This document shows, in pieces, positions 2,895 to 47,878 of a stretch of DNA of 64,000 nucleotides. The position numbers and the translations under genes are program-made. Origin of the DNA: Rhynchopus sp. YZ270_cl-10 (taxonomy: Eukaryota); contig OZ037833.1 in NCBI GenBank assembly GCA_964035575.1, positions 868,001 through 932,000 of the forward strand, in the 5' to 3' direction. The first letter of the stretch is position 1. Each line of letters opens with the position of its first letter. Under the pieces are notes generated by a model. The model was not told the origin of the DNA and ran no database searches. It worked only from the letters and a program-made list of their open reading frames with translations.

Positions 2895-3175
2895 CTGTAT
2901 TCGTACAAAAGTATCGACCGTAAAAAAAAAAGAAAAGTTTATAAGATGATCCTAAGCCTCTCGTGCTTAGTCACCTTATCATATTCGCTATCGCACAGCA
3001 TCAGCGGCGCTGGCTTCCACAAGTTTGTTGTCAGGGATGATGTCATTTCCCCAGCCGGAGTTCGTAATTTTGGCACGTACGATGACGTGTTCGAGCAAAA
3101 AAAAGGTCGAACTTCCAAAAAAAAATTTCTGAAAAGGTCGAACATTATTACGGTCGACAATATTCCCGATTACGG
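2895..3175. mobile_element. TA-flanked Tc1/mariner (pogo/Tc2-like) MITE, degenerate copy
   Basis: 3095-3177 matches the MITE at 26502-26606. Ends are TA|CTGTATTCG ... CGATTACGG|TA. A family-A micro-element is nested at 2932-2977. Confidence 0.55.
2932..2977 (-). repeat. Hairpin micro-element family A (representative copy)
   Basis: Plus-strand consensus GAAAAGTTTATAAGATGAACCTAAGCCTCTCGTGCTTAGTCACCTT. Full or partial copies near 1662, 2943, 3762, 4008, 4108, 4706, 9647, 13276, 13536, 14218, 16254, 16750, 25709, 30461, 31318, 32328, 32429, 37118, 37450, 38258, 41288, 44103, 44963, 48545 and 49028. Confidence 0.9.
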
Positions 3176-3864
3176 TATTAAAAAAAAAGCGTGTTATAAC
3201 AGGGGTGTGTACACTTGGCAAGAAAGAAAGAAAAAAAAGTTCAGAGATGAGCATGCCTCACGTACCTACACATCTAAAAGAAAACTGCAGTTGGGGCGAC
3301 TAAGCCCCGGGGCAATTTTACCCCCTCAAAAAAAAAAAAAGCTTTGTTCGGGTACGATGAAAATGTAAGTGGCAATGCCAAGGCACAAAATTTGCGCTCT
3401 CACTACATTCCCACTACATTCGGTTTTCACTTATGTTATGACGACACTATTTTTTTTCATTATTTCTCCTGACTTGGGGGTGGGAGCTTTTTTATTTTCT
3501 ACCCAAAAATTTCAGGAAACAACAGAGGACAAGCTTTGAAAGATGAATGGAACACTGCACTTGGTTTGAAGAAAGATTATTGAAAAAAAAAGGGGGGAGG
3601 GGTGAAGTTCGTCGCACTTTCCTATCGTTTGTTGCAAATCTCCTTGGTGATTTTTGTGCGGGCAAAGAATGGAGGAAAAAAAAAAACATGCGACGTTAAG
3701 TTGAAAGTGCAAACGCCTCTGGGACGCAGGCACTGACACTCCGCGGGGGAAAAGGTTTTATAAGATGACCTTAATCATCTCGGTGCTTAGTCACTTTGAT
3801 CACAAAATCGTTATCGTACAGCATTAAACCCAACAAAAGCAGGAGGGGTCAAAGAGAAAAAAGA

Positions 3865-3912
3865 GAAGTTGAAAAGTGCAAACGCCTCACCGTTCATAGG
3901 TGGACGCAGGCA
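3865..3912 (-). repeat. Hairpin micro-element family C (representative copy)
   Basis: Plus-strand consensus GAAGTTGAAAGTGCAAACGCCTCACCGTTCATCGGCGGACGCAGGCACTGA. Copies near 3699, 3865, 13466, 16014, 34173, 37169 and 42234. One inverted copy at 35978-36020 lies inside a DNA transposon. Confidence 0.85.
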
Positions 3913-4463
3913 AAAAATATATATACAGTGAACCACCTCCGTGCTGTGCTCCAGGACAAAGAAATCGACTGTTTTGTGGTGTCAAACGAAGAACAGTTTT
4001 TTTTTATAAGATGACCCTAAGTAAGCCTCTCGGTGCTTAGTCTGATTAGATTATTCTTTGGTTTATTCATCAGTCATTTGTTTTTTTTTATGTTTTTTTT
4101 TGTCTCTAGGTGACTAAGCCTCTCGGTGCTCAGTCACCTAAATAAAATGCCCTCGCGCAAGCCTTGCTGCGTGCGTCCCACCCTTTTTTTTTTTTTTTTC
4201 TTCTTTTTCGCAGTCGCTCCCTAAAAATTCTCTTGACAATGGAACAAGAGGAACCCCGGGTGGATAAGTTACTAAACAAAGAGAAAACTGAACGTGCAAA
4301 AAAAAAAAAAAAACCGCCTCACCGTGCATCGACGGATACGGGCACAAACAACTTATTTAAAAAAGAGAAAAAAGGAGAACAGGAAAAAAAGGAAAGTACA
4401 GAGAGTATCATAAGAGACTTACACGAGCAAAGCAGCAAATACGGACAAAAAAAAAGGGGGGGG

Positions 4464-4504
4464 GTTGACTTGAAATACAAAGCCCTCTCGTGAACAATGT
4501 ACCT
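4464..4504 (-). repeat. Hairpin micro-element family B (representative copy)
   Basis: Plus-strand consensus AAAGTTGACTTGAAATACAAAGCCCTCTCGTGACAGTGTACCT. Copies near 4464, 4934, 6094, 7421, 30398, 31253 and 45011. Confidence 0.85.
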
Positions 4505-5701
4505 TTGGTACAATGACCGGCTGTACAGGGGGTCCTACAATCCATTTCGTGGTTTACATCTGAGAAAAAGTGAAGATGTTGTGCAAAGTGCAAAACCCTT
4601 TGCGGCCCCAAAGAGTGCACCGCAAGGACAATCGTGATCTGCCCCCTTTTTTTGTAACATCAACAAAAAAACCACCCCAAAAAACCGAAAGAAAAAAAGG
4701 TTCGCAAGATGAACCTAAGCCATGCTTTGAGTCACCTAAAAAAAATTTTTTTTTGCTTTAAAAAACGTGTGTTCTGCCCCACTAGCTCCCCGTTCTTATG
4801 TTCGTTTTGTTTTTGTTTTTTTGTTAAAAAATACAGACACTCATTTACCCGAGCGCCATTGGAGGCTAGGTTGTGTTCACAGAAAGAAAAAGGTGTTCCA
4901 TGTATGGTTTAGTTGCAAAAATAAAAATAAAAATGTGACTTGAAATAATAAAGCCCTCTCATGACAGTACGCCTGAAGAAAGCTTGTCAGATGCCTCTCG
5001 TGGCACACATACACACAGTGTCACACACACCTCGGAGCATATTCTGCGCAAGAATTACCCCCCTATTAGTTATCAAACACATCTTTTTACCACTATGGTT
5101 ATCGTGCAAACAGAACACAGAAAAGAGAAAAAAAAAAAATTTTTTTTTTTTGATAAATTGTTTTGGAGTAGTGTAGTTGCCTTGGTTGTGTTGCCACAGT
5201 TGTGCAATCTCCACTTTCCTTTTTTTTTTTGTGAGATAAGTCGGAAGTTTAGTGCTGAGTCAGCTAATAATAATAATAATAATAAACAGAGCTGCTTTTC
5301 ATGAGTGACAGAGACGGACAAAGGGGCAGGCATGTTGGACCATGCAGGGAAACACTTTTATATAAGGCAAAAATAGTGACTCTGATAGGTAAAAGGAAAA
5401 AGGCTTTTCTTTCCGTTGATTGCTCAAATTATTTACAGAGGTGATTAAGCGACCGTATCTGAGGAACCCTCTTCTCCTTTAAGCTACGCTTGTAGGTACA
5501 AAAAAAAAAGAAGAAGAAAAAGAAAGGTTTTGTGGTCTGAAAGGGGCTGATTCGCACTGTTCCCCGCACTTTTTCCGCCCCCCGATTCAGCCACACCATT
5601 AATTTTTTTTAAAAATACACTTGGTATCCCTTTGCATGTCCACCCACCCTCTTTCTCTCTCCCTCTGTTCATATGACTCGAGTGGAAAAGGTAAAAGCGC
5701 T

Positions 5702-5850
5702 GGAAACTTTTAACTTGTTGTTTAGAAGATGACCTGCCCGAAGACAGGCTTCTGTACACACTGTATTGGGTTGTTTTGTTTTGTTTTGCTTTTTTTTGAA
5801 AACTTGGTTTTGTATTAGTGTAGACACCCCCAAGGATGGGCTCCACTATA
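5702..5850 (-). repeat. Composite of a UUCG-hairpin element (family H) and a family-D element
   Basis: AACTTTTAACTTGTTGTTTAGA..ACCTGCCCGAAGACAGGCTTCTGTACACA.TGTATTGGGTTGTTTTGTT followed by a family-D copy. The same arrangement recurs at 40933-41054. Confidence 0.85.
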
Positions 5851-7258: not shown

Positions 7259-7378
7259 ATGGGATAATATAAAAAAAAAAATTGCATCAGCAATCACTTC
7301 ACATGATATAAAGCTGCGCTTGGGAGTGGTTTACAGGGAAACTGTAAGCAGGTATACAGTCATTACCATCAAAAACAA

Positions 7379-10300
7379 CTACAAGAAGGAATGGCAACTA
7401 CTGACACTACAAAAAAAAAAGTTGATTTGAAATACAAAGCCCGCCCCCCTACCTTGAAAAACACACACATACCGAGGAGACATCGTACGCACCAGCTTCG
7501 CACGGCCTGGGGTGAGTGGACTCACGGACCTGCGCCCATTAAGGTTTGGCGACGCACTGCGTGTCTGGTTCGGCGAAACATTCCTTTTGAAGGTGCGTGG
7601 GGTGGGGCTGGCCTGCTGGGTGAGCACGGGGGGGTCTGAGTGGTAGGGCGCTTTGTCTGCTTCTGTGAAGACGTCGTCACGCTCACCTTTGTAAGGTGGT
7701 GGGGAGCAGGAGCGTTGGGGGCGGGGGAGTGTGGGGCACTTCAGTCCGTCCATGACGACGTGCAGCTTCTGGTCTTCGTCGTAGATGCGTTCAGGGGAGG
7801 TGCTCCGCACGATGTCTTCCCCTAGCATCTGACGCATGCGCTCTGCACCTTTCCTTGCAGGGTCGGCACGCAGCATTTGGCGGAGCTTTTCTTTGTTGGG
7901 ACGGTTGCTGACGTAGCGCATTTTGAATTCGGAGAAGGCGCGCACCGCGTCGCGGACGTCCTGCATTGTCCAGTCTTTGGGGAGGTTGCCGTCGCTTGCG
8001 TGGATGAGCTCGAGGAGCAGTTTGACGTCGTCGAAGACGTTTGAGTATTCTTCCTCCTTGCGTTCCAAGTTGGAGAGAGTATACCGGAGGGACTCCTTGT
8101 CGTGCATTGCGTCTTTGAGGAGTTCGCCGTTGGTTCTGATTGCTTCCTCTGCAGTGGTCTTCTCGTGCCCGACGCGGTGGAGGCGTGCTTCGTATTGGCG
8201 AATGGAAAGGGCGTGGGCGTCGCGTTCGTTTTGCAGTTCGGTGCATTTGGCTACCAGCTCGGAGTCGTGTCGGCGGATTTTGCGGTGCGCCTGGTCAAGC
8301 TCCTGTTGAAGCCGTTCAATGTCTTTGTGATGAAGGCGTTGCTTGTAGGTGGCGTCGTTCTCGACAGCGCGGAGGTCAGACTTCATGTTGTTTTTGTCGG
8401 CCTCTCGCTCAATGTGGAGGCGTTGGATCTGCAGTTGGTACTCCTTCGCCATGTCTTCTGATTCTTGTACGATGGCGCCAAGCTCGCGGTCGTGGTGTTC
8501 GCTGGTGTGTTGCTTCTCGAGTTGGTGTTCTGCGAGGATGTCGGACATTTGTTGGCTTAGTTCGTTGATGCGCTCGGTCATCGCTTGTTGATGTTGGTCG
8601 GAACGTTGTTGGTTGGAGAGGGCACGCTCGCGTTCGACGCGAAGGGCAGAGTCGAGGTCGCCTGCACGTCGTGACATATCGTCTTCTTTGAGCTTCATCA
8701 AATCCTTCTCGCGTTTCAAGCTGTCGACCAGCTCGCGGTGATCTGCTAGATCGTGTTTCAACGCTTTCGCTGCAGTTGCTGCCGCCTCTGCTTCGGTCTT
8801 TTTTGATTCGATCTCGTCGTGCGCGGTTTTTAACCTCGCCTTTGCAAGACCAATCACCACTGCACTCTTGAATGCCTGAGCTACCTGCCGTTCCTTCGTC
8901 TTCTCAAGCTGTGCTTTGATCACTTCAGCGTCTTCTACTGCCTTTGAGAAGCGGGACTCCATTTGCCGTTTGTCGTTGACTGCCACTTCGAGGTCGGTTT
9001 TGACGACTTCAAGCTCCTCTTGGGAGGCTTTGCCTTCCATGTCGTCCATTGCCTTTTGTGCGTCGATGATACGCTTTTCCATGTCGGCGAGGAGCTTGCT
9101 GGTGTCGTCCTCGTTGACCTGCAGGTTGTTTACAATGGAGCGGGCACGCATCGCGTATTCCAGCGTACGGAAGGATTCATAAGCATTGCAGTGGTGTGGG
9201 CTGACTGTTGCAAGCATATACGTCTTCGCGTTGCCTCCCAAGTCCTGGCGGAGGAGCCACGTCAGCGTGCTGTCTCTGTAAGGCACCACAATACCCGGTT
9301 TCTGCTCAATAAGCGCGTCAATGACACGCCGCAACGTCGTCAGCGACAGATTGATCTTCTGAGCCTCGAGGAGGGTGCTGCCTTGCGCGCCGCTGCGTTT
9401 GACGTTCTCGCTTCCAGCAAGGTCGACAAGGTTGATATTCGCACGGCGCACGCTTGTGAGCTGAGAGGGGGGTGGAGGTGGAAGTAGTGGCGATGTGACA
9501 AAGGGATAACATACCGTTTTAGGCCCTCCGATGCCCACCCGTTCTTGCCGGAGAACTGTTGTTTGCGTGAGGGATATCTGTTAGGTTTGGTTTATTTTGT
9601 TGGGGGAAAAGAGACGACGCAGATCTTGATAGTATAGAAAAGCTTTAGATGAACCTAAGCCTCTCGCCTCGTTGCTCCCTTAGTCTGATTAGATTATTCT
9701 TTGGTTTATTCAGCACCTTGGATATGACATACTCTGAACATAGCATGGGAACGTGACGACCTATCATTCAGCTTTGTCTGCGCAATGCTACGTGCCTGGT
9801 TGCCTGCTGTCACAAGAGCGATCATGTCTTTGTAGCTCTTCGGCTTGAACACCGTTGTGCCATGGACGTATGGCCCGGAGACAGGGTGTTCACGCACTTT
9901 GAGGTCGTCGCTGTCGAGGGGCTTGCCCACCTTAGCGGCATCGTGCTCGCGCATGCTTTCACATCCTTCTACACGCGCCTCTGCCAGCAGATCCCTAACC
10001 TTTTCGTTGTAGATCTCGAGGAAGCGCACCTCGACCTCGCTTTGCTTGGTGAAGCCGGTCTTCATGCTTTGCTCCTGCCAGAGCTCCATATCCGTGAACA
10101 GCGCGCGGCAGAGCCGTGGGATCACCCCCATCGCTTCTTCTGGACAATCTGGGTCGGTGATCTGAGCAGGATCCCCCATCATGGTATGGGTCTTCCCGGA
10201 CCCTGTCTGTCCGTAGGCGAAAACGCAGGAGTTAATCCCTTCCCAGGCGGTTTCGAGGCAAGGCGCTCCGGTAGCTTCGTAGACCTCGCTTTGCGAGGCA

Positions 10301-12189: not shown

Positions 12190-12795
12190 TGGTGTGGCTG
12201 AAGGGGTCTGATTCGCACTTTTCCGCACTTTCTCGCACTTTTTCCGCACCTATTCGCACTTTTTCCGCACTTTTTGAGCACTTTTTCCGCACTTGTTCGC
12301 ACTTTTAGCTTGTAGGCTTGCTGACTGTCTTTGCCAAATACACAGGCACACAGGTACACAGGTACAGGTACGGTAGGTACCCACAGAATACCGTGTACCT
12401 ACACAGGTACACAGACACAGTCAGCAAGCCAACATTGTAAAAGTGCGAATAAGTGCGGAAAAAGTGCGAAAACCGTACCTACAGTACCTACAGTACCTAC
12501 AGTACCTACAGTACCTACAGTACCTACAGTACCTACAGTACCTACAGTACCTACAGTACCTACAGTACCTACAGTACCTACAGTACCTACAGTACCTACA
12601 GTACCTACAGTACCTACAGTACCTACAGTACCTACAGTACCACAGTACACAGTGTTCAACTTTTACAAGGTGGGGAAAATTTTTTTGGGGGCTGATTCGC
12701 ACTTTTTCCGCACTTTTTCCGCACCTATTCGCACTTTTTCCGCACTTTTTCAGCACTTTTCCGCACTTTATGCTCCCCCCCGTTCAGCCACACCA
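12190..12795. mobile_element. TG..CA element carrying minisatellites
   Basis: TIR TGGTGTGGCTGAA / TTCAGCCACACCA flanked by AAAAA. Internal TTTTCCGCAC arrays in both orientations. A short degenerate relative lies at about 5529-5598. Confidence 0.8.
12475..12648. repeat. 9-bp tandem repeat (ACAGTACCT) x about 18
   Basis: Perfect array read directly from the sequence. Confidence 0.97.
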
Positions 12796-12935
12796 AAAAA
12801 GCAAAAGAAAAAGAAAAAAGAAGAAATACAAATCCCCATATTCCATGATCTCTAGGACCATATCTCACTTTAGATCAACTCCCTCATCCCGGTATCAGTT
12901 TGTTTTGTTTTGTTTGTTTGTTTGTTTGTTTGTTT

Positions 12936-12988
12936 TTGATAAATTGTTTGGAGCAGTGTAGTTGCCACGGTTTGTGCAAATCCCCACT
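12936..12988 (-). repeat. Hairpin micro-element family E (representative copy)
   Basis: Plus-strand consensus (T)nGATAAATTGTTGGAGTAGTGTAGTTGCC..TGCAATCTCCACTTTCC. Copies near 5150, 12936, 16580 and 17489. Confidence 0.85.
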
Positions 12989-13865: not shown

Positions 13866-14010
13866 CTGTACCTGTGTACCTGTGTACCTGTGTACCTGTG
13901 TACCTGTGTACCTGTGTACCTGTGTACCTGTGTACCTGTGTACCTGTGTACCTGTGTACCTGTGTACCTGTGTACCTGTGTACCTGTGTACCTGTGTACC
14001 TGTGTACCTG
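13866..14010. repeat. 8-bp tandem repeat (GTGTACCT) x about 18
   Basis: Perfect array, bracketed by imperfect inverted repeats at about 13790-13807 and 14051-14068. Confidence 0.97.
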
Positions 14011-15259
14011 GGTGACCAGAAAAGGAAAAGTGAAAAAAAGTGCAGAAAAATTGGAAATTTTCAACAAATGGTTGGTATTGATGCAGGCACCTCTGACTGA
14101 CCCACCGACAGAAGGTGTGAAAGGAACCCTAATGACCTTGCCCGCACCGTAGTGAACCGGGGGTCCACCTTCTTCCGAAGAGTTGCAGAACAAAACAAAA
14201 AACAGAAAAACGTTAGCAAGGTGATCCTAAGCCCCGCCTCTGCAACGATGCTGGCTTAGGCATCACCTCACCCAGTTAAGTCACAAAAAGAAGTGCATGC
14301 ATTCTTTTCTTAAGCCAGATTCATAAAGAAAACTTACTCGGGGGGGGGGTTTCGTGGGGGTTGCTTAATGGGTTGGAGTAGGGGACATGACAAAATATGG
14401 GTTTTTTATCGAAACCGAGACTTTAAGGGATATTTAGTACACAAAAAAAAAGGGGGATTTGAAATACCGTCAGGCACATGCATCTTTCAAGTTTTATTTC
14501 AATCAAGTATTGTGCCTCTCGTGCATACAAACAAAAAAAAAATAGAAAACGACTTCAGGATATGACAGTTAAATGAAATAAAGAAAACACTTTTTCATTT
14601 ATCGCACCGCAAAAGGATTGTGTTTTTCACTGATGAATGTGAGTGATGTTAGTGGAAAAACAATACGCTAAAGCGGGCACGCACCATCCGTCGTTTTCCA
14701 TTTCTATTCGTCAATGCTTGATAACACAAAAAAAAAAACATCAAAAAGAGGGGAAAATAAAAACTGCTATCTGAGTTTAAGCTAGTCTGATAAAGAAAGA
14801 AACGAAATCAGAAAAAGAATTTTTCGTTGATCGCACCGGATTTTTGTGGAGTGTGTAGGGACAAAAACCAAAAAAACTTTTCTGTGGATAAGTTGTGTCG
14901 TGTTTACATCGCTCACACCAAAAATTCGGGCACAACTCAGATATGTTTTCATTTCCTCCCCTACCTTTGCAAGGCAGTTGTCTCAAAAAAAAAAAAAAAA
15001 TGAAACACCTGAAAGACTCGAAAGACGAATGAGCCTTTCGTGCAGACATTGAAATAAAAATATGGGCGAAGGGTTGCCTCTCTCAGGCCAACCGTCCACA
15101 CAATCAAATGGACCCAGTGGACCTCCTAAATGGGGTCCTTTTCATGTAGGGGCAATAGCATTGCCGTGGTTGTTAAAGTTGTTCCCTTTCTTCTGTTATG
15201 TAAAAAAAAAAATGGGTTATTTCTCTCCTTATCCTGTAAAAGAGAAAAGAAAAAGAGAA

Positions 15260-15393: not shown

Positions 15394-17722
15394 GAGAATA
15401 TACATTCTTTTCTTTACGACACAAAAAAGAATGCAAAGAGGGTGCAAAACATGTACCCTTGCTTTTAAAAAAAAAAAAAAGAGAAGAAGAAAAACGTAAA
15501 GATGAAAGCTCCTCTCACTACACAAACATCGGAGATAGTATAGCTTCATGAACACCCAGGAGTGACGCTTTGGGCTCTTTGTTTGCTCTTATCTCAGATC
15601 GCCTAAGTAAGAGGAACCTCATCTCTTTTCGAGAAATAATAATAATAATAAAATTTTGTGTTGATAATCTGTTAGTGTAGCTTTCACTAACTCTTTTTCC
15701 CTTTTTCTTGAAAACCTGTCATTTTTTTTTTTTTTTGTTCAGGCTTTCTTTTTTTCGTTGCAATTGACAAAAAACGTTGGGCGTACTTATGTTCACAAAT
15801 CTAATGATATAAACCTTGCTCTTCTGGCATCAGCGACAACAAAATGTCACCCCCAGATAGAAAAAAAAAACAAAAAGGTAGAGGGCCTCGTAGCACAGCA
15901 TCCTCTTCGCAAGCATTTCAACATATGCAATCAATACATTGATAGCATAGGGAGGAGGGGATCAATAAAAATGATTCCCAGCTTTCTTGCAAGAAAAAAA
16001 AAAAAAAAAATGAGAAGTTGAAAAGTGCAAAACGCTTTTCACCATTCATCGGCGGACGCAGGCGCTGCTTCTCAAAAGAAAAAAAGAGGAAAAAAAAAAA
16101 CACCACAAATCACCACCCTAAATCTATCGTTTGTTTTTTCCCTCGCTGAGGAAGCTGGGAAAGGAAAGGGAAATAATTTTTTTTTTTTGATTGAATAAAT
16201 TGAAAACTGTAGCAGGAGGGGGGTGGGGGGGGGAAAAAAAATGTCAGGTGGGATAAGGTGAACCTAAGTCTTGCGTTTATAACTCTCGTGCTTTAGTCAC
16301 CTTTGGGGGGAAAAAATGGGGAAAATGCCAAGGCACTGTCCTATACGTTGTCGGTTCCCCACTACAGTCTCCATATTTATTTATTTTTTTTTTTCTCTGA
16401 AGATTTTTCGTTTTGGTAATGTTTGTATGGTATCATTAGATGCAATGCACTTTGATAGCACACATAAAAAATCACACAAAAAAATCACGATATATTTTTT
16501 TTTTTAAATTGTTTTGACGTTTGGCATACGTTGTGAATACTGTACTGTTGTTCCTTGCTTTTTTTTTTTTTTTTTATTTTGATAAAATTGTTGGAGTAGT
16601 GTAGTTGCCGTCGCATGCAATCTCCACTTTTTCCAAATTTTTTTGAAAATATTTTGTAGGCGTCTGGGGTCATCTGAAAAGGGCTACCTGATAGGGGGGG
16701 AGAGACGCTGTGAGAAAAAATAGGAGGTGAAACAGACGTTTCATAAGATAGATGAACTTAAGCCTCTCGTGCTTAGCCATCTTGAAAAAAAAGACAGACA
16801 GAGAAATAGAGGGGAGGAAAATGGGCTGTAAGACCATAATTGTCTTTTAAAAAAAAGGGAAGCTTTTTTGCGTCTGTGAAGAGTGGAGAGAAAGGGCCCT
16901 GTTCTTTTAAAAAGAAGAGAAAAAAAAAATCAGGATATTTCGTGTCATTACGTCGACATCACTCACGTAAAGACACCTGTCAGGGCCTTCCAGGGCCACC
17001 GTGTATCTTGTGCGTCTCTCGTGCACACATTTTTTTATTTTATTTTTGAATCGCACACTCGCTCATGGCTACAAATAAAGCTTGAAAACAAAAAAACAAA
17101 AATAAAACAAATGGGAAGGGAGGGGAGGGGGACGGTGATTACACGTTTGTCACTCACTTTTTTTTTTTTTTTTTTGTATTGATGACATACTTTCCCCTGC
17201 GTTGTGTTATTTCCTCAAATCCCCATCAGCTTCGTGAATCATGCTTTTAAGGAAAAGAGCCAAAAAGAAAAGAAAAAGAAAAAAGAAAAAAAAACCGTAT
17301 GAAGACGTTACCCACCCCCCACACATACGTTATTTTCTTTCTCGGATACGTTGGGTTGTGTGTTTTTTTGTTTTTGTTTTTGTTTTTGTTTTTGTTTTTT
17401 TGTTTGTTCGATTATCTGTGTTGTGTATATGTCTCGTTGTTGTTGTTTCTTTTTTTTCTTTTGGTTTTGTATTTTTTTTTTTTTTTTTTGATAAATTGCT
17501 TGGCATAGTGTAGTTTCCTCGGCTGTGTTGCCACAGTTGTGCAAATCTCCACTTTCCACAAAGTTCGTCTTTTTTAAGACCCCTGGTTTTGAGTGTCCCA
17601 ACAAAGGCCTAAAACCGACAGCTCGCTGATAGGTTTTGTGGAACACCACTGGGTTGTTTTTATTTGTTGCTGTATTTTTTTCCCCCCCTTTCTTAATTTT
17701 TTTTTTGCAAATATGTATTTAA

Positions 17723-25591: not shown

Positions 25592-26501
25592 TGAACAAAA
25601 AATGCAATATTTTTTTTTGAATTTTTTTGTGCTGAAAACAAAAAAAAGGCGGACCGGGCCGCACAGTACAGTTCACACACAAAAAGGAATGACGTTTGAA
25701 AGTTTTATAAGATGAACCTAAGCCGCTCTTGCTTAGTCACCTAGAAAAAAAATAGCATCTAAAAAGGGGGTGGTCGAAAAGAGAAATGATTGTAGAACGG
25801 ATGCAGGCATGAGCTCCATTGTATGTGTGGGTTTTTGTTTGTGCGTAAAGTGTGTAATAAACATTCTGTGTTGATATTATTACTACAATACGCCTCCCAC
25901 TGAGTACCTTACCCTGTGAAGAGGAAACCTCTTTGAGGCCAAAAAATAAAAAAAAAAATGCAACAAAACGTCACGACGGACGCAGTAACCATTGCTTCCA
26001 TTGCGGCTATTCGCCCCCATCCCTCCCTTCCCCATATGTCAAGGGAGGGAGTAGAGAGATGTGTTTTTTGTTGTTGTCGACAATCATTCCTTTTTTTGTT
26101 TTTGAAAACTTGGTTGTATTAGTGTAGACACCCGAGAATGAGCTCCACTATATTTTTTTTTGTTGCCGACAATAACGCAGTAGTCGTTAGGAGGATAGAA
26201 GGGGAGATGCATGCAATCAAATCATTTGTGTAGAAAAGAGTTCGAGGCTGTAGGGTTTCATTATCCCCCCATTTAATAAAATGGAGGAAGCGGGTTTTTT
26301 GAATCTAGTGGAGGGGGTTTTTAAGCAAAAAAACACGACCTCGCCCTACCCTATATTGAGACCTTCGAACCCAACACAAGAAACCTTCAGCAGCATTTTT
26401 TAATACCCCACACAAAAAAATACACAAAGAACAGGGTCCAATTCTGTCCTCTGGAAAAAATTTTTTTTATTGTGTATTGCATCCTCTCTTTCTTTGCATT
26501 A

Positions 26502-26606
26502 CCGTAATCGTAAAATGTTCGTAAAAAAAAAAAGGTCGAACTTCCAGAAAAAAATCCTGAAAAGGTTGAACATTATTACGGTCAATAATTTTTTTTACGA
26601 TCACGG
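26502..26606. mobile_element. Tc1/mariner (pogo/Tc2-like) MITE
   Basis: TA|CCGTAATCGTAAAA ... TTTTACGATCACGG|TA. Second copy at 2895-3175. Confidence 0.75.
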
Positions 26607-26652
26607 TATTTTGTTGTATTGACAATATCCTAATTTCCTACCTTAGTATATA

Positions 26653-27997
26653 CATAGCGCTCCAATTAGAGTGTTAGGGTATAATTAGAGTCTGGGATTT
26701 TGGGTCAAGTCAGTTAGAGTCCAGTTAGAGTATAATTAGAGTCGCTTTTCTTCAATTAGACTATAATTAGAGCGCAGTTAGAGCATAATTAGACTCTAAC
26801 TACACTCTAATTATAGTCTAATTAGAGTAAAACAACAGGCTTCTTGTAGGTGCAAACGCCTTAAGGAACTGGTTCCCCTAAGGTTCCTCTGTAGGACCCA
26901 GGTGTCCAGGTGCCCACATAGCTGAGAATAAGACTTGGGGACCCGGGACCCGGTTATTCTCAGCCGGACTGGGACACAACTATGTGAAGGCGCTGTGGGT
27001 CCGCCTGAAAGCGGGTCGGGGACCCGGTCGCGGGAGGGTGGGGGCCTAGTCCAAGTCCTACTGTACCTAGTACCCGGGACTCGGGACCCGGCTTATTCTC
27101 AGCTATGGGTACCCGGACCCGCAGTGGCACATGCCCTCAAGTGTGAGTGACCCACACATGAGGGAATGCGACACCGCAAAAACTCTTCGTGCACCTTCGG
27201 GTGCAATGCCGCAGACAGGCCAAACAGCGTTGGACTCAGAGGAATTCCTGCTGTGCAGGTAACAAACATGAGAACCAACTCCCAGTAACAAGGGGCGCCT
27301 TTTGGCGGGCGTTATTGAGGATGTTTGGGGTGCAAAGTTTTCCACAATTTTGATGCGCGGGTACAGAAGTGTTGTCTTGTTCTTTCATCTCTAGGAATGT
27401 AAATGTCAATCGAGTTTAACTACCACTAAGGGGTCGAAGGGGATAATCCCAGTATCAAAGGTTGTGTCGACGGGAAATCTATGAGTATACGTTCATTTCA
27501 TCCGCAGAAATAACTACTTATGAACCCAGGAGAGATCCAAGCCTCGCGCTAAACCACCACCCGCGATTGACTTAGATGTTATAACAAAGAGAATTCATAA
27601 CAAACAACACCCTACCCCATGCACACTAAAGTGCCATGCTTCAAGTGATCATGCCCTGGGCCAAAATTCCTGTGCTAAAAAGGCAACAAGACCAGTGTGA
27701 ATTGTGCACTGGTTTTCTGGGGGAACAAACAATATTTTCTTGTATCTAGTCCTCTGCAAGCAGAAAACAGACGTTCTGGATTACAAAATCGAATTTCTTG
27801 CACTGGCTATGCTCCCTGGGTTTATGGCTATAGCATTGGTTGATGTGCCCCTCTTATTGACCCTATTATAAGACTCTAATTAGAGTCTAATTAGAGTCCA
27901 GTTAGAGTATTAGAGTTCAGTTAGAGTTTTAAAGACTCTAATTATACTCTAACTGCCGACTCTAATTATCTAGTTGGAGTCTAATTAGAGCGCTATG
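26653..27997. mobile_element. Non-autonomous DNA element with TAATTAGAG subterminal arrays
   Basis: TIR CATAGCGCTC(C/T)AATTAGA, flanked by TATA on both sides. Many TAATTAGAG/CTCTAATTA units at both ends. An internal inverted pair CATAGCTGAGAATAAG (about 26917) / CTTATTCTCAGCTATG (about 27092) suggests a nested MITE. Confidence 0.8.
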
Positions 27998-28152
27998 TAT
28001 ATTAGTAGGTAACTAGAGTTCTGTACTCAATGCCTACCAAAACCTTTACAATCACATTACCATATTTCCGTTTAAAAACAGAAAAAAAAAACCACATTTT
28101 TTTTTTTTTTGAGAGTAGCCCATTCCCCCCACCCCCCTCTTCACATCACCAT

Positions 28153-31749: not shown

Positions 31750-31801
31750 TTTTGAAAACTTGGTTGTATTAGTGTAGACACCCAAGGATGAACTCCACTA
31801 T
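31750..31801 (-). repeat. Hairpin micro-element family D (representative copy)
   Basis: Plus-strand consensus (T)nGAAAACTTGGTTGTATTAGTGTAGACACCCRAGGATGARCTCCACTAT. Copies near 5797, 26103, 31753, 33902, 34525 (split by two insertions), 37647, 41015, 42944 and 48356. Confidence 0.9.
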
Positions 31802-32573
31802 GTTTTTTTTTATTGCGGGGGGATGGGGGAAACACAAAGAAAAAATTAGGAGTGCGGTTTCAATTTTAATAAGACCCCAAGCCTCATGTGCTCGAAGTCG
31901 AGGAGCATATATGGGGAGGTGACTGTACCCAATTACTGAGCAGAACCAATCGCCTGATTACTCTCACAATCTTTTTTTTTCTCCCAAAAAAAGAGAAAAA
32001 AACAGGAGAATAACTACCCAACTTAACTAGCCATTTTGTCGTTGTTTAGTTGCCACAGAAAAAGGCTTGTTAAGATTCATTTCCCCTGCCCCTGCTCGCA
32101 CAGAAAAAAAAACACACACATTTTTAAAAGGGTGAGAAAGAGGAAAAAAAAGACAAATGGCGTTAGCTTAATATGCCAGGTTATCAGAGGGTGTTTGTAA
32201 CCTGACGCGTCGGTCGGTGTATGGACCATCACCGTCACCCCCCCTGCCAAAGAGAGAATCGTGTTGGCGAAAAATATCGGGTTGTTTGTGCGTTCAAAGC
32301 CGGGGCGAAAAGAAAAGAAAAGTTTATAGGATGACCCTAAGCCTCTCGTGCTTGGTCACCTTGGGAAAAATAAAGGGGGTTGTAGACACGTTGATGTATA
32401 CACCAATCTGTAAAGAAAGAAAAGTTTATGAGATGAACCTAAGCCAAGAAAGAAAAAGGTATTTTTTTTTTGTGAGAACGCCTCACAGCCCCACGTTTTT
32501 TTTTTTCACCACCTAGCATGAGGGTGTTGTTGGAAAGATGGTTTTGCCTGTTTAAACAAAAAACAGACAGCTG

Positions 32574-33305: not shown

Positions 33306-33735
33306 CATGGATGTCCAAAGTACTTGAAGTATATCAAGTACTTGATCCCCCAAAAAACCCAATACTTGATACTTGAAGTACTTGACACCCTATTTTTTTT
33401 TCTAGTACTTTTTTACTTGTTCTCCCTCTGTCAAGTACTTTTTTCACAAAAAAAAACATCAAGTACTTGATCAAGTACAAAAAAAAGTGGGTACTTGATC
33501 AAGTACTTGACGTTTTTTTGCGAAAACAAGTACTTGACAGACTCTGCCTTAGGGTAAAAAAGTAAAAAAGTACGAGAAAAAAAAATAGGGTATCAAGTAC
33601 TTGATTTATGTCAAGTACTTGATCCATCTTCAAGTACTTGACTGTCATTTTGAGAGGAAAAAAAAGGGGGGGTCAAGTACTTCAAGTGCCATAAAAAATC
33701 CGAAAAAAGTACTTCAAGTACTTTGGACACCCATG
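33306..33735. mobile_element. MITE built of CAAGTACTTG palindromes
   Basis: TIR of about 26 bp, CATGGRTGTCCAAAGTACTTGAAGTA. TSD is GTTATC (or TTAT if the termini are CCATGG). More than 15 AAGTACTT-type units inside. Confidence 0.88.
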
Positions 33736-34329
33736 GTTATCGTGCAGCATCGAACAAAGAGAAGGTGATACTGGGAACAAAAAAAAACAACAAAAACAAC
33801 AAAACGACACATATCGAACCTTTACAAAGGTGCCATACACACAAACGCTAGGTAATGTTTTCGCTCTATGAAAAACTACCCACATTTGCCTTTTTTTTTT
33901 TTGAAAACTTGGTTGTATCAGTGTAGCCACCCTAGAGTGTGCTCACTATACTTTTTTTTATTTTTTTCAAACACATCCATCGTGTGGCTACTTTCACACC
34001 TCTTTTTCTACATCTTCTTTCAAAAAAATACTTATGTAACTACTCCTTTAGTTTCATTCCCCTACCAAGACAGAGTGCCTGCTGGACCTTTTTTTTACAA
34101 CCAGCCTGAAGAAGGATAGAGTCAGGCTAAGCTATCACCACTTTACACAACCAGAGGGTCGGGGTGAGGGGTGCTGAAAGTGCAAACGCCTCGACGGACG
34201 TAGACAATCAAGAATAAGAATGGTTGATGCAAGGCACCTCCGACTGACCCACGCCACCTGTACGATGTCAGACCTCGTAGCCAGTCTCTCGTTAAACAAA
34301 GAAACAATATGGTTCACGTACATCTTTAA

Positions 34330-36387: not shown

Positions 36388-38292
36388 GCCTCCACATTTT
36401 TTTTTTTTTTTTGCACTTCGCCTTGTAAAGTAAGGCTGGTATATTTTACACACTAAAAAAATGTTGTTGCGGTTTTAAAAAAACCGCATTTTTGTTTTCA
36501 CCTCGCGAGCAAAATGGAACTCAAATCTAAAGAAGAAAAAAAAGAAGGAAAGAAAAAGCTGAAAAGATAAATAGACCCACACGCATTATGAAGATCTTTA
36601 CCACTAACGTTATTGTGAGAAGGAAAAACAAAAAAGGATTGTTTCATACATATTCTTTTCTAAACGAAAAGAAGGCAAAGAGGGCGAGAAAAAATGTACC
36701 CTAAAAAATAGAAGAAAACTTGAGGGATAAATATGCTTCAAAAGATGCACATCAAAAAGGAAAAAGATTGTTTCATATACTAACTATTCTACTGAATAGA
36801 AGGTATAATAGGGTGCACTAAATAAAAAGAAAAAGAAGAAATCATTGAACGTGCCTCACGTGACACACACACACATCTAAAACGATGTGAGACACTAACA
36901 CATAGTTCTTTCTCCCTCTTTTTCTCTCTTGTATCCACTACGATACCGTAAGCTCCCTTTTAACGCCCTCTGCTGTTCACGCATTACCGAGGTATGGTCA
37001 ACTAATTTTGGGGTCGTTTTTTTTTTTTTTTTTCTCAGGAAGCCTTCATTGTGCAATCAAACAGAAGACAGAATCGTTGTTCACGAAGTTTGTCTTTAAA
37101 AAAAGGTAGATGTTTATAAGATGAACCTAAGCATCTCGTGTTTTAGTCACCTTGGTTAAAAAAAAGAGAAGTTGAAATGTGCAAACACCTCGCCGTACAC
37201 CGGCGGACGCAGACACTGAGGGGGGGTGGGGAAAAAAAATGAACGCGAGACGAATACAAACGTATTTTATTTGCATAAGAAATGGGGTATGGAAATGTGA
37301 AGTACTTTTTTTTTGGAAAGTTTGGATAACAAAAAAAGAAGAAAAAGGGGGAGTGAAAAAAACATAAATCTTATCATACCAGACAAATATTCCTTCCGAT
37401 CAAATCTCAAAAAAAAAAGAAAGCAAAAAAAAAAACCAAAAACTTTATTAGATGAACCTAAGCAAGTTCTTCTTCCCCCCATCCCCTCCCCTTTTGCCCC
37501 CTTTATTTTTCCGTCGCATTTTGCATAAAGATTCGCTATTCGAGTGGTATCGGGGTTTGTGTGTAGAGAGAGGGGTAAATTATGTTCCACATATTTGGGG
37601 GTTTTTTTTGGCCGTTTCTCTCCGCACCAAATATATTTCTCTTTCTTGAAAACTTGGTTGTATTAGTGTAGACACCCGAGGATGAACTCCACTATACTTT
37701 TTTTAAATACGACGGCATTCAGATACCCAATCCCCACAACACACACGCCCTTTTTTGGGGCCATATTCTGCGCAAGAATTACCCCCCTATTAGTTATCAA
37801 AAAGACACACAAAAGCCCTTTCATCGCTGCTGACACAGAATGGCACTCACGGCTCCTCCCTTCCTCCCTTCCTCGCTTGCTGCCATCATGATGCACAGGT
37901 TACCTGTTCATACACATCGCACTGCTCGCGAATGGTCTGCAAGAGGCCACGTGCAGCCTCAGACGGCACAGAGGCAGTGTCCACTTTGAGGTGCACATTC
38001 AGCAGGCCTTCAGAGTGGGGTGATGTCACCCATCGGCTCGCACCCTGTTTTTGTGTAGTGGTTTATTTATCATAAAAACAAAAGTGAAGTTATTAATGCG
38101 CCTCCCGCTGACCCATGCCAGCTGGATGAAAGCACTACCCATGCGGCCAACAACAGGAGATGTAAAAGGAAACCTAAGCAGACCTACCCCGTACCGTAAG
38201 AGAACGGTACACACAACCTGCTCTCTCGTCAGCCGGCAAAACAAAAAAAAAGTTTATAAGATGAACCCTAAGTCACCCCTTCATCACATTCG

Positions 38293-40233
38293 TTATCGCA
38301 CATTAGCTGCATAGGCTTCCACAAATTTGTTTGGGATGATGCCATAACAAAAAATAATACAATAATGGAAGCTCTCTCTGAGGTACAAAAAAACATGCAC
38401 TTCCTCGACCTCCACTTTCGCTATCGAAACCCTCCCTCCTCCCTCCCTCCCTCTCCTCCATACCCTCATCCCCGACAACGCAACACCGACACTGTTGACT
38501 AACGTTGTAAACGTCTGCGGAATTTCTCGCACCATCTTCACCAATTCCTCCTGCAGGTCAACCTCTGCCGTCTGCACATGCGCACCTCCACGACGCGACG
38601 GCGCCACACCCGCACCCGCACGCACACCACCCCTACCACCACACCCCCTCTCACTCTCCTCCTTGTAGATGCGCGCAAACTCACTCTCCAGCTCTTTGGT
38701 GTAGTGGTGCAGATCGTGCCCCGGAGGGTTAAACCGCTTGCAGTTATCCCAGACCTGCTGCACATCTGCCAGTACCGTTTCGCCCGCTGTATAAAGGTTG
38801 TTTCTCAACAGCGCTACTACGGTACCCAAATCCATTGGTCGCTTAATCACTGCGAGATAGCCAGGGGCACGGTCGCGGACGGGGTCGACTGGGCGGAGGA
38901 AGAGGAAGAGATCGTCGTCAAAACGGCGCTGTTTCAGGAAGCGGTGCAACGCATGCGCAGCCAGACGCACATCATCCGGAATCTGTTTTGCCAGAACCGC
39001 CGGCGCGATGTCAGCTATGCTTGCCAACGAGAAATCACTGCTCTCCGCAAAAGGGGATGGATACGTTCCCCTCAATGCATCAGGGCAGAACCCTTCTGAG
39101 GACGACCCCGATCCATCCGAAGACGCAACGCTAGGAGACCCATTCACCACACGCACGCATCTGAAACTCAATGTCTGCGGGCACTCCCCAGCCTCCACCA
39201 ACCCTAGGTCCTCCCCTACAACCCCAGCACCCCCGAGAGACACCCCACTAGGCTTCCTCCCACAGCTTTTCACCTCCCCATCGAGAATCAACACATTTTC
39301 AGCTTCAGGAGGCGGCAACGTCAAAATCTGCGGCGTCGCGCACGACAACGCAGGAAGCGGACGTCCGATACTGCGAACAACACTATGCGGGAGGTGGCGG
39401 GGTTGGAAGGAGAACGAAACCTCAAGAGCTGTCCTGGTAAGTTTTCCATTACCGGGAGCGGTGAGGTTGTCAAGCATTGAGGCAGACGCAGTGACTATAT
39501 CCTCCGAGGTGGTTACAGAGTACGAACCCAGATCTGATGAGATCTGCTGCAATCTACTGCCGATAAAGGGCAAAAACTGGGCATCTCCTGCAGACAGCAG
39601 GACTGCGCCGCTAAATCGCAGCCCAAATACAAGCTGCGGCACCCCTCCGACCTCACACGGCACCTCAACGGAGACGATACGTTGTGCACCCCCACATACA
39701 CACCCCAGATCCGACGAAATCAAACACGCACACCCACCACGCCGCTTCCTTTTCAATACGGCACTCAACGATGTGGTCTGCGCCTGGCAAGCCTCTGCTG
39801 TCTCCTCAAAGACACGCCGTGCTGCGTTTACTACCGTGGAAGGCGTTCCTTTGCGGGTCGATTTTGCGGCAGATGCGAGTCGTGGTCGGGTAGATGACGA
39901 CATGGTCTGAATAGCCGAACGCATCGCTTCAAGCGATTCGGTTCCAGTAAAGGGGCTGCAGAAGGGTTCCCAGGTACGTTGCGACGCCCAGGCTGCGCGA
40001 ACGGCAGCAGTCGCCGTTTCGTCGCTATGAGAGAGGAGGAAGGCGGCGTCGCTCAGATCTGTCGGAGCTGCCTCGGGGTTCGCCAACGGAGAAGGTGAAG
40101 GCCCCTCGGCGTACTCTGTCAAATGCTTCTCACGCCGATGCACTTCCGCCCCTTCCCCATACACCAATCCCACCTCCTCATCCCCCAACCGAAAGCAAGC
40201 CGGGACACTCACCCCCAAATCTTTTCCGACCAT
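38293..40233 (-). CDS. Bromodomain-containing protein, possibly with a spliced ET-like C-terminus
   Basis: FLRPVDP...PGYLAVIKRPMDLGTV...DVQQVWDNCKRFN with the conserved Asn. Likely ATG at 40233. A GTATGG donor at 38463 suggests the annotated ORF end is intronic. Confidence 0.85.
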   Translation of the reverse strand: MVGKDLGVSVPACFRLGDEEVGLVYGEGAEVHRREKHLTEYAEGPSPSPLANPEAAPTDLSDAAFLLSHSDETATAAVRAAWASQRTWEPFCSPFTGTESLEAMRSAIQTMSSSTRPRLASAAKSTRKGTPSTVVNAARRVFEETAEACQAQTTSLSAVLKRKRRGGCACLISSDLGCVCGGAQRIVSVEVPCEVGGVPQLVFGLRFSGAVLLSAGDAQFLPFIGSRLQQISSDLGSYSVTTSEDIVTASASMLDNLTAPGNGKLTRTALEVSFSFQPRHLPHSVVRSIGRPLPALSCATPQILTLPPPEAENVLILDGEVKSCGRKPSGVSLGGAGVVGEDLGLVEAGECPQTLSFRCVRVVNGSPSVASSDGSGSSSEGFCPDALRGTYPSPFAESSDFSLASIADIAPAVLAKQIPDDVRLAAHALHRFLKQRRFDDDLFLFLRPVDPVRDRAPGYLAVIKRPMDLGTVVALLRNNLYTAGETVLADVQQVWDNCKRFNPPGHDLHHYTKELESEFARIYKEESERGCGGRGGVRAGAGVAPSRRGGAHVQTAEVDLQEELVKMVREIPQTFTTLVNSVGVALSGMRVWRRGREGGGRVSIAKVEVEEVHVFLYLRESFHYCIIFCYGIIPNKFVEAYAANVR

Positions 40234-41980
40234 TTGAAGGAGGGGGGGGGAGGGGAGGGGGAGGGAGGAGAAAAGAGTGTAGTAAAAAGGCCTCCCCCCG
40301 CCCTCAAGCTGTCTGATAGACAAGAAGGTGTTCTGGTGCTGCACCCATATAGTAGGGGGAGTGGAGGCGATGGGAGTGGAAGAAAGTGTGTAGATAGAGT
40401 TAAGAGGAACCCGCCTGGTGAAGAGGTGGTGTGGGGTTTATGTGGAGGGGGGGGGGGAAAGGGGGGGGGCAAGAAATGCTTGTTTATCCCTCACAGAATG
40501 ATTAATTATTTTCAATCGAAAGATGGAGTTTTTTGTCCAAAAACAGAAGAACGTTTTTTGGCAACCTTTGGCGGCTGTCACCATGCAGCTCCACCCTCTC
40601 TGTTTATGCGCATTTCCCTACCAATGATGTACCGTCATTAAAAAAAAACATCAAAAAATGGTGTGATCACCAAACCGATTCTCCGTGGTTCACCCGAAGG
40701 TGCTCCAGTAAGGTATAACCCCTAGCAGTTCTAAAAAAAAAAAGAAGAAAAACAAGAAAAGGGGGGTTTGTATTGCTTTGTTTTTTTTTTTTGAATGTGG
40801 CAGTGGAGTCCACTATTGTTTTTTTTTCCTATTTTACGAAAAATTCTTCGCCTGGAATGGGGGGGGGTTGGGTAATGGGGTAATGAAGGGTATTTTGGAC
40901 AAATAAAAAAAAAACGAAATAATTAACACGATGGCAACTTTTAACTTGTTGTTTAGACGGTCACCTGCCCGAAGACAGGCTTCTGTACACAATGTATTGG
41001 GTTGTTTTGTTGTTTGAAAACTTGGTTTAGTGCAGACGAGGATGAACTACACTACATTGATTTTTTCCCCCCATTTTCTTCCAGACATGGTGTCATTGTA
41101 GTTGTAAGAGCGATTCGCTCGAAGGTTACCGACACCAAGGCTTGGATTTCTGTGAGGTGAAGAAAAAAAAAATTTTTTTTTTAAATGCGCGCCACATTTG
41201 TAGGTGCAGTGAGGGGGACTTCCAAATATGGGCGGGAGGGAGATGAGAAGTAAAAAGGGGGGGGGGAAAAAAGGTCAGGTGCGCCATCTAAGCCTCTCTC
41301 GTGCTTAGAGGTCTGGGAGGTGACAAATGGTGCCCAATACTGGGGCCGCATTTATCAACGTCAAAGAACAAGGGATAAGAAAAGCGAGAGAAAAAAAACT
41401 GGAAAAAAATTTTTTTTTGGGTGATGGGTTGGGTCGCGCAGGGGGACACACAACCAGCATCGGTTGAAAAAAAAAAGGGAAAAAAATAAAAAAAAGAGCG
41501 GCTAAAACGTGCTAAAAAAACGCATCTCAAAAAAAAATAAATAAATACAAAATGAGAAAAACGACATTGTGTCGATATCCGCTCCTTCAAAAAAAAAAAA
41601 AATCTTTTTTAAGCTGCCCTCCCACCACACCCTAGAGGTGGGGGATGTCTGAGACATAAGAAGAACGAAAGTATTTCAACATATGCAAATCAATAAATTG
41701 ATAGCATAGGAGAAACAAAGAATCGAAAAAAAAAAAAAAACACTTTTCTCCTTAATGCTTTGTATAATACACCCAAAAGGTGGAGGGGAAGGGGCACTGT
41801 ATGCTGCTTTGTTTATTTTAATTTTTTTTTCTCCTTCTACGTGCGGAGGGGTACCAAATGTCACTACAAGGGGTGTTAGCACTACGTAGGTAGGGTTTAG
41901 AAATAGTAGGATCGGTAGGTAAAGTTGTTTCGTTGTGATATTGGCAAACCCTACCCGGTAGATACAATGGGGTAATTATC

Positions 41981-47017: not shown

Positions 47018-47120
47018 ATCTACATTACGTGTATGCACATCATTTGCCAAATGTTCCGCCAACAAAACAAAAATTTTCACTGAAAAAAAAAAAAAAAAAA
47101 AAAAAAGTTTGCACCTCGTG

Positions 47121-47878
47121 CATACTTGTAGCTAACTAGCCGTGGTACGTGGCGATTTTGTTTCCCAAAAGAAAGAAAAAAATCGGCCGGAAAGAAATTT
47201 TTTTTACCCAGGAAAAAAATTTTTACCCAGGGAAATAAATTTCCCTCAGGCACTAAATTTGCCTCAGGAAATAAATTTCCGCCAGGAAATAAATTTGCCC
47301 CAGGAAATAAATTTACCTCAGGAAATAAATTTACCTCAGGCAATAAATTTGCCTCAGGAAATAAATTTCCCCCAGTAAATAAATTTCCCTCAGGCACTAA
47401 ATTTGCCTCAGGAAATAAATTTCCGCCAGGAAATAAATTTGCCCCAGGAAATAAATTTACCTCAGGAAATAAATTTACCTCAGGCAATAAATTTGCCTCA
47501 GGAAATAAATTTCCCCCAGGAAATAAATTTCCCTCAGGAAATAAATTTGCCTCGGGCAATAAATTTGCCCCAGGAAATAAATTTCCCTCAGGAAATAAAT
47601 TTCCCTCAGGCACTAAATTTCCCCCAGTAAATAAATTAACGCGCTGTTGCCCTGTTTCTCAGCAACAAGCGTCACAGATTCAAGAGAAAACGGAGGTGTT
47701 CCTGCTGATGGCGGAGGAGTTGGAAAACGTCGCTCCCCCCGTATTTGTTTCCGGAATTGAGCTTCTGAGGACCTTTTTCGCGCGAAGCGCGAAAATTTTT
47801 TTTTTGCCAAAAAGAAAGAAATTGGGCGTGGAATTCTAAAATTTTTCGGGAAAAACGGCATATTTAGCGATAAGTATG
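47121..47878. mobile_element. Non-autonomous hAT-like element with an 18-bp minisatellite
   Basis: Imperfect TIR CATACTT..GCTAA..GCCGT. Perfect 8-bp TSD ACCTCGTG at 47113-47120 and 47879-47886. Confidence 0.82.
47228..47636. repeat. 18-bp minisatellite (CAGGAAATAAATTTSCCT) x about 22
   Basis: Read directly. The unit is quasi-palindromic, and a higher-order block of about 7-8 units is repeated. Confidence 0.95.

What the first reader, a model, noticed from the sequence alone, without database searches (positions are those of the whole stretch)
2932..4504. Families A, B and F share a bulged-A plus GNRA cap; A, B, C and F end in AAC-(U)n
Seen in sequence: A and B have unrelated stems but the same apical ACGAGAG, and F has ACGUGAG. 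B and C share a CU/UU internal loop. A, B and C run into ...AAC plus U-rich or (CUUUU)n tails, and F ends similarly. Inference: a single protein may recognise a structural signature across families with different sequences. A U-tail rather than an A-tail would be unusual for retroposons and could point to uridylated or Pol III-like templates, or to T-targeting rolling-circle (Helentron-like) ends.
Basis: partly seen in the sequence, partly recalled or inferred. Interest (0 to 1): 0.7.

Follow-up and report, generated by a model that had tools for sequence, protein, structure and literature searches.

The report
U-tailed LINE retrotransposon end hairpins
Two of these four short hairpin repeats in a marine flagellate genome are the chopped-off tail ends of two LINE-type jumping genes, and the other two likely are too; unusually they end in T-rich rather than A-rich tails, sit in T-runs facing the same way as the genes, and were likely pasted in by reverse transcription primed through that U-rich tail.

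Summary
A and B share ACGAGAG on different stems, F has AC-GNRA-G, and C lacks the cap. The motif scores 11 sense against 1 antisense and 1.1 in shuffles. T-tracts follow 36 of 40 copies.

The long A copy (2937-3096) encodes the exact C-terminus of a 1450-aa APE-endonuclease/reverse-transcriptase LINE protein. C is the 3' end of a second LINE, 41% identical to the first, and a third relative ends at 35967. So A and C are 5'-truncated LINE 3' UTR hairpins, not Helentrons or Pol III RNAs. Partners of B and F were not found.

Unusual features: U-rich/(CUUUU)n tails, T-runs on both flanks, no detectable target duplication, 39 of 40 copies sense-oriented, and most copies cut at the hairpin foot (about 41 nt).

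'One protein reads one signature' is only partly supported: several related proteins exist, and the cap is no better kept than the stems within A. Verdict: new variant of a known kind.

The parts
2922..2936 (-). U-rich 3' tail / T-run (one CTTTT unit plus T10) of the long A copy
   Evidence: sequence; contig loose ends at 2922-2924 are A-runs on +
2937..2977 (-). Family A terminal hairpin with bulged A, C(GAGA)G cap (2958-2964) and AAC end; 2977 is the common 5' end of short copies
   Evidence: fold z -4.1; 290/206/208/35 contigs end loose at 2977 in four runs
2978..2990 (-). Short 3' UTR spacer and stop codon (2988-2990) of LINE-A
   Evidence: the majority variant at 2988 turns TAG into TAA, still a stop
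2991..3098 (-). Last 35-36 codons of the LINE-A APE-RT ORF (5'-truncated insertion; the element starts at about 3096)
   Evidence: 92-97% identical to the C-terminus of P0126/P0130 and cluster members
3097..3104 (-). Upstream T8 run; the insertion splits the T-run of a small palindromic repeat whose unsplit paralog is at about 26490-26610
3239..3275 (-). Family F hairpin, AC-GUGA-G cap, related to A; partner not found
3699..3747 (-). Family C short-loop hairpin with 3' UTR spacer = 3' end of LINE-C (P0158/P0225)
   Evidence: frameshifted member P0234 reads from the ORF into this stretch, E 6e-10; loose-end consensus at 3747 reads H-S-G-V-R-stop by eye
3756..3826 (-). Diverged A copy with the last ORF codons (N-A-V-R-stop)
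3868..3912 (-). Family C long-loop hairpin with CU/UU loop, no ACGAGAG cap, ends CAAC plus T-rich tail
4002..4139 (-). Two A variants in tandem (4002-4044 and 4105-4139), both with an extra C in the cap
4289..4339 (-). Degenerate C copy with an internal T-run expansion
4464..4565 (-). Family B hairpin (4464-4504, cap 4485-4491) with a 5' extension of about 60 nt; partner not found
   Evidence: the extension is repeated in other contigs and resembles 45105-45143
7314..7367 (-). Fragment of the LINE-C ORF C-terminus
   Evidence: 89% identical over 18 aa to P0158
35881..36016 (+). 3' end of a third related LINE (ORF ending ...SGVR-stop, then a C-type hairpin and T tail); the only antisense copy
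38252..38349 (-). Diverged long A copy keeping frame and stop, cap deleted

Best explanation
Families A and C are the 3'-terminal hairpins of two related single-ORF LINE retrotransposons (APE endonuclease plus reverse transcriptase), B and F are likely ends of further members or dependants of the same group, and the copies likely arose by target-primed reverse transcription in which a U-rich RNA tail would pair with the A-rich strand of a genomic T-run. SHOWN: ORF end, stop, short spacer, hairpin, AAC and T-rich tail are contiguous; 5' ends vary in long copies; T-runs lie on both flanks; orientation is almost always gene-sense. INFERRED: the protein binds the hairpin in cis; the endonuclease nicks the A-rich (transcription-template) strand; the RT starts in the U tail and slips to give (CTTTT)n; it usually stops or jumps to the target at the foot of the stem, giving the copies of about 41 nt; second-strand joining inside the run leaves no duplication other than possibly T's. 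The cap shared by A, B and F is most simply inherited within this LINE group; C's LINE has remodelled it.
For: The window peptide 2991-3095 finds P0126 (1347 aa, RT plus endonuclease, 44 members) as its C-terminus; 1450-aa full forms lie on several Mb contigs. Other loci read through from the ORF into the A hairpin (P0128, P0267, P0268; hairpin translated by eye) and into the C hairpin (P0234). LINE-A, LINE-C and P0157 form one RT clade (SH-aLRT 98, quick tree). Summed contig depth falls from the hairpin (3.58M at 2950) to 0.42M at 2988 and 0.18M at 3006 in run X2, with the same trend in X4, X5 and X6. 21 junctions of ORF calls (20 true truncations, reference aa 262-1425; one, P0229, is not; P0146 and P0150 may be one locus) have 30% Phe and 0.8% Lys just upstream, against 11% and 8% in translated non-coding DNA, i.e. 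T-rich 5' flanks. (CTTTT)n arrays sit at 3' ends. A G-U/A-U column pairs in 13 of 13 copies on this strand. Precedents: stem-loop recognition by stringent LINEs (PMC4176376, abstract); T-rich tail pairing with an A-rich bottom strand proposed for EhLINE1 (PMC1635306, passages).
Against: No target-site duplication above permuted pairs in 23 copies (4.2 against 3.9+-0.5, p 0.23), whereas most LINEs make one. No partner ORF for B or F among the homolog C-termini tested. I never saw the DNA of a full element, only proteins, and that they come from this very genome is inferred from 92-97% identity. The sharp common 5' end at the stem foot is not typical of random truncation. The cap is not better conserved than the stems in A and there is no covariation. 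The folds of B and F are not beyond shuffles. How much of the tail is RNA-templated and how much is host T-run cannot be separated.
Confidence: 0.8

Rival explanations
1. The copies of about 41 nt are an independent minimal SINE. Hairpin-only RNAs cut out of host polycistronic transcripts are re-copied, and one RT (LINE-A) also moves B and F through the shared bulged-A/GNRA cap.
For: Fixed 5' end in hundreds of contigs; short forms dominate; A and B share the cap on unrelated stems; sense orientation means copies are co-transcribed; no B or F partner found.
Against: B has its own longer form that may end an ORF (weak); at least three related LINE ends exist, so each family may have its own protein; no promoter or processing site is shown.
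Confidence: 0.3
2. The T tail is only the target. The RNA ends at AAC and primes by microhomology in existing polypyrimidine tracts.
For: T-runs on both sides; many copies sit in each other's tails (joints).
Against: The filled site holds 18 run letters plus a CTTTT unit against 11 in the unsplit paralog; 6 of 7 (CTTTT)n arrays are at 3' ends; the 3' flank is richer in T than the 5' flank (60% against 48%).
Confidence: 0.15
3. Helentron/HINE or other HUH single-strand DNA elements inserting into T-runs.
For: No TSD, T's on both flanks and a 3' hairpin match HINE features (PMC4067079, passages).
Against: A and C are contiguous with APE-RT ORFs; there is no second subterminal inverted-repeat pair besides the hairpin; no Pfam hit in 49 non-coding frames. 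It remains formally open only for B and F.
Confidence: 0.03
4. Retrocopies of Pol III or uridylated small RNAs.
For: Hairpin plus U tail.
Against: No Rfam match at these places or at gathering score anywhere in 1300-49100; the upstream sequence is a LINE ORF.
Confidence: 0.03
5. The sense-only orientation comes from selection (antisense copies removed, or sense copies kept as polypyrimidine/AG processing signals) rather than from the insertion mechanism.
For: The A-tailed family G is also 6 of 6 sense; Leishmania SIDERs are about 4-fold sense-biased (PMC2689281, passages).
Against: The bias here is near total, 39 of 40 against 58% expected from T-run supply (P about 1e-8, but nested copies are not independent); it also holds for a copy inside an intron (9647-9666).
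Confidence: 0.35

Closest known systems
Stringent-type LINEs and partner SINEs (UnaL2, ZfL2-1/2; L2 clade)
   Same: APE-RT protein; 3' stem-loop followed by a short repeat tail; related families each with their own 3' end (PMC4176376, abstract).
   Different: There the loop differs between families and gives specificity; here A, B and F share the loop and differ in stem. The tail is U-rich. Binding was not tested here.
EhLINE1/EhSINE1 of Entamoeba
   Same: T-rich 3' tail, T-rich flanks, proposed pairing to the A-rich bottom strand (PMC1635306, PMC2996970, passages).
   Different: EhLINE has a restriction-like endonuclease, makes TSDs (22 bp in the cited example) and its SINEs are about 450-680 bp. 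These elements have APE, no detectable TSD and mostly copies of about 41 nt.
Ingi/L1Tc/RIME/SIDER of trypanosomatids
   Same: Euglenozoan APE-RT retroposons, 2A-like N-terminus (P0130 has DIHPHPGP, relatives have canonical motifs), sense bias in gene clusters.
   Different: Ingi has RNase H, a poly(A) tail and TSDs (PMC12278014, PMC2323293, passages); none was found here.
Diplonema papillatum 'R2/jockey'-labelled polyproteins
   Same: Closest named proteins, about 31-51% identical over the matched part, in the same RT group.
   Different: The names are automatic; their DNA ends are not described in the passages I could read (PMC10161547; its repeat supplement was too large to open).
Helentron HINE/DINE-1
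   Same: T-run targets, no TSD, 3' hairpin.
   Different: No Rep/helicase link and no subTIR pair; an RT ORF lies directly upstream.

Membership tests
APE-type non-LTR retrotransposon (LINE) | RT domain with YADD-type motif in the parent ORF | tested here: met
   PF00078 E 3e-24 in P0126; YADD at 831 of P0130; best PDB hits L1 ORF2p and R2
APE-type non-LTR retrotransposon (LINE) | N-terminal APE endonuclease and C-terminal CCHC knuckle | tested here: met
   PF03372 E 9e-10; CCHC at 1178
APE-type non-LTR retrotransposon (LINE) | Fixed 3' end with tail, variable 5' truncation | tested here: met
APE-type non-LTR retrotransposon (LINE) | Target-site duplication (common, not universal) | tested here: inconclusive
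   No excess in 23 copies; a T-only duplication of up to 8 nt cannot be excluded
APE-type non-LTR retrotransposon (LINE) | Hairpin and tail needed for mobilisation | not testable with these tools
   needs an assay
APE-type LINE (families B and F) | Contiguity with an RT ORF | tested here: inconclusive
   No match among the homolog C-termini; the search was limited to relatives of LINE-A
Ingi clade | RNase H domain | tested here: not met
   No RNase H hit to E 0.1 in P0126
Ingi clade | poly(A) tail and 11-13 bp TSD | tested here: not met
Ingi clade | 5' 77-79 nt signature | not testable with these tools
Named LINE clade (L1, RTE, L2, R1 and others) | RT phylogeny with reference clades | not tested
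   The tree held no reference-clade sequences; the clade is unassigned
Helentron/HINE | Subterminal inverted repeats plus separate 3' palindrome; Rep/helicase partner | tested here: not met
   Single hairpin only; the partner is an RT ORF
Helentron/HINE | Insertion in T-runs without TSD | tested here: met
Pol III SINE | tRNA/5S/7SL-derived head | tested here: not met
   No Rfam hit; short copies begin at the hairpin foot

The most novel reading that the evidence does not exclude
A diplonemid group of APE-type LINEs runs target-primed reverse transcription with mirror-image chemistry (U-tail on an A-rich primer, no duplication) and is coupled to host transcription, so it inserts only in the sense direction. 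Its bulged-A/GNRA hairpin of about 41 nt is a complete cis-signal that re-mobilises from polycistronic RNA as a minimal SINE, seeding very many polypyrimidine tracts and AG sites where trans-splicing signals lie.
Probability: 0.2. Interest if true: 0.75.

Novelty: new variant of a known kind. Interest (0 to 1): 0.5.

Why it matters
It explains a large class of tiny repeats in a poorly known, abundant marine lineage as LINE 3' ends and ties two of them to apparently intact proteins. That gives a matched panel (different stems with the same cap; related proteins with a changed cap) for asking how LINE proteins read their RNA and how tail chemistry sets target choice. U-tailed, T-run-seeking APE LINEs without visible duplications did not turn up in my paper searches (listings only; Repbase is not searchable here). 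If the hairpin plus U tail is sufficient, it is a very small cis-signal for RNA-templated insertion, and the sense-only pattern makes transcription-coupled targeting testable.

Tried and rejected
No whole genome is held, so genome-wide statements rest on contig tables and protein records. No RNA holder was listed; this says nothing on expression.

Collection scans: the exact A core found 0 metagenome loci. A cap-plus-tail pattern gave 18 single-match loci, none matching the family profiles convincingly. 66 viral 15-mer hits had 0 element-like arms.

Library searches: Rfam gave only sub-threshold hits elsewhere. Pfam found nothing in 49 non-coding frames chosen from the 224 listed. The protein atlas gave only unnamed RVT_1 clusters. 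The earlier-findings index was empty four times.

No allelic empty site appeared among the joints shown (15 of 844). The systematic paralogous empty-site search gave only low-complexity pairs; the one usable site was spotted by eye and then tested (left flank score 35 against 22.6+-3.3). The careful tree did not finish; the quick tree used 59 of 69 rows (10 dropped for short RT coverage).

Resemblance of the cap to the rRNA sarcin-ricin loop, group II intron domains, IS200/REP ends and the spliced-leader intron (all recalled from memory, not tested) was set aside once the RT ORF link appeared. Supplement 1 of PMC10161547 (part 1 of 8 read) is a NUMT table; its repeat section could not be opened and may bear on novelty.

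Full report
Setting. The window is from a diplonemid: its EXO1 gene's nearest named relatives carry EukProt labels Sspe and Hpha, which I read from memory as Sulcionema and Hemistasia, and the closest named relatives of the LINE are D. papillatum proteins. All genes with Pfam hits lie on the minus strand, so minus is the sense strand.

Observation. Profiles built from window copies found 21 A, 7 B, 9 C and 3 F copies at E<=0.01, of which 39 of 40 are on the minus strand. The descriptor A-C-GNRA-G with two flanking pairs occurs 11 times on minus and once on plus, against 1.1+-1.1 in shuffles. With the cap deleted, A and B are unrelated while A and F are related. This is what neutrally decaying copies would show, so it neither proves nor excludes selection in the master elements. 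T-tracts follow 36 of 40 copies (background 39%) and AAC-then-T 17 of 40 (4.4%). 6 of 7 sense (CTTTT)2+ arrays follow A or B directly.

Genome-wide picture from contigs of four public runs. 290, 206, 208 and 35 contigs break loose exactly at 2977, the foot of the A stem, and continue (in sense reading) from C preceded by a T-run; the other end continues into a T-run. Joints place A's 5' end right behind the tails of B and C, so copies nest in each other's tails. Summed depth falls from 3.58M in the hairpin to 0.42M and 0.18M further 5' (unique DNA about 100). These sums are not copy numbers, but they show a very abundant short form and a graded minority of longer forms. In the window, 5' flanks are 48% T and 3' flanks 60% T (background 31%), and there is no duplication signal in 23 copies. 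The long A copy splits the T11 run of a small palindromic repeat whose unsplit paralog lies near 26.5 kb; the filled site has T8 before and CTTTT plus T10 after, and no other letters are duplicated.

The decisive step. The 5' extension of A is an open frame ending at a stop (2988-2990) that other copies keep through 3-nt indels. Searching with it found P0126, a 1347-aa protein with APE endonuclease and RT domains, whose last residues it matches; a profile-free search of cluster representatives returned 13 proteins, mostly the same end. The cluster has 44 members and 1450-aa forms on several megabase contigs, with YADD, a CCHC knuckle and a 2A-like N-terminal motif; no RNase H was found. Gene calls at other loci read through the stop into the A hairpin (P0128, P0267, P0268). 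A second family, P0158/P0225 (37 members, 41% identical to P0130), ends ...HSGVR. Its frameshifted member P0234 runs on into the translation of window 3746-3699, family C, and the contig consensus beyond 3747 reads H-S-G-V-R-stop by eye. A third relative ends at 35967 on the plus strand and is followed by a C-type hairpin. LINE-A and LINE-C are in one RT clade (SH-aLRT 98) inside a wider group with many D. papillatum elements (quick tree). Truncated gene calls join the LINE at residues 262-1425 and are preceded by Phe-rich, Lys-poor residues, i.e. T-rich DNA (gene calling may add some bias). No partner was found for B or F. That the proteins come from this same genome is inferred from 92-97% identity, not shown.

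Mechanism. Shown: anatomy, linkage, truncation, flanks and orientation. Inferred from LINE biology: hairpin binding in cis (PMC4176376, abstract); a nick on the A-rich strand and pairing with the U-rich tail, as proposed for EhLINE1 (PMC1635306, passages); slippage making (CTTTT)n; and premature joining at the stem foot. The sense-only pattern (P about 1e-8 against T-run supply, overstated because of nesting) means the first nick would be on the transcription-template strand. Selection is the alternative, as an A-tailed family with A-runs on both flanks is also 6 of 6 sense and SIDERs show a weaker bias (PMC2689281, passages).

Comparison. It is a LINE by tested features. It is not Ingi (no RNase H, poly(A) or TSD; PMC12278014 and PMC2323293, passages) and not a HINE, despite sharing T-run targets and no TSD (PMC4067079, PMC11417382, PMC5148889, passages). 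2A-like motifs occur in several APE clades (PMC3708506, abstract), so they do not assign a clade; the clade is unassigned. T-rich tails and flanks are known in Entamoeba RLE-type LINEs (PMC1635306, PMC2996970, passages). D. papillatum LINE-like ORFs are noted without description of their ends (PMC10161547, passages).

Verdict. The feature is real and largely explained: LINE 3' ends, with an unusual U-tail, T-run, sense-only, hairpin-only profile. New variant of a known kind; interest 0.5.

Noticed in passing
window 5790-5850, 26096-26152, 31750-31802, 33895-33950, 37640-37696, 42940-42994 (G); 5140-5220, 12926-12972, 16569-16630, 17477-17557 (E): Two related A-tailed hairpin families, all on the sense strand; G has A-runs on both flanks (67% and 89% A). 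They mirror the T-tailed families; partner unknown.
   Followed up: partly
window 5700-5780 and 40932-41011: Repeat with a C(UUCG)G-capped hairpin followed by an A-like TCATCT...AAAC end in one copy.
   Followed up: no
window 15015-15055, 14505-14535, 4990-5010, 17000-17030: Further hairpins with ACGAGAG or ACGAAAG caps on other stems, sense strand; possibly more families of the group.
   Followed up: no
window 9559-9735: An A variant lies inside a canonical GT-AG intron of a kinesin gene (intron read by eye); it shares an insert of about 30 nt with the copy at 4002-4075.
   Followed up: partly
window 38293-40233: The bromodomain ORF as listed runs into and uses the LINE-A stop; host-gene calls elsewhere (P0128 KH domain, P0129 cyclase) also end in LINE-A sequence.
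   Followed up: partly
window 46079-46908, 45337-47025, 26639-28011, 33369-33720: Nested long inverted-repeat elements (135 and 103 nt arms) and other palindromic repeats that look like non-autonomous DNA transposons; no Pfam hit in the internal frames tested.
   Followed up: partly
window 12472-12642, 13867-14010, 47143-47714: Tandem arrays of 9, 8 and 18 nt units.
   Followed up: no
window 49081-64000: Intronless ORF of over 4800 aa with a weak VWA hit and dozens of Cys-rich repeats.
   Followed up: no
P0188, P0209, P0224 clusters: Further APE/RT families on similar long unnamed contigs, one with an OTU-family domain (PF02338); candidates for partners of B, F, E or G, but their C-termini did not match the window.
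   Followed up: partly
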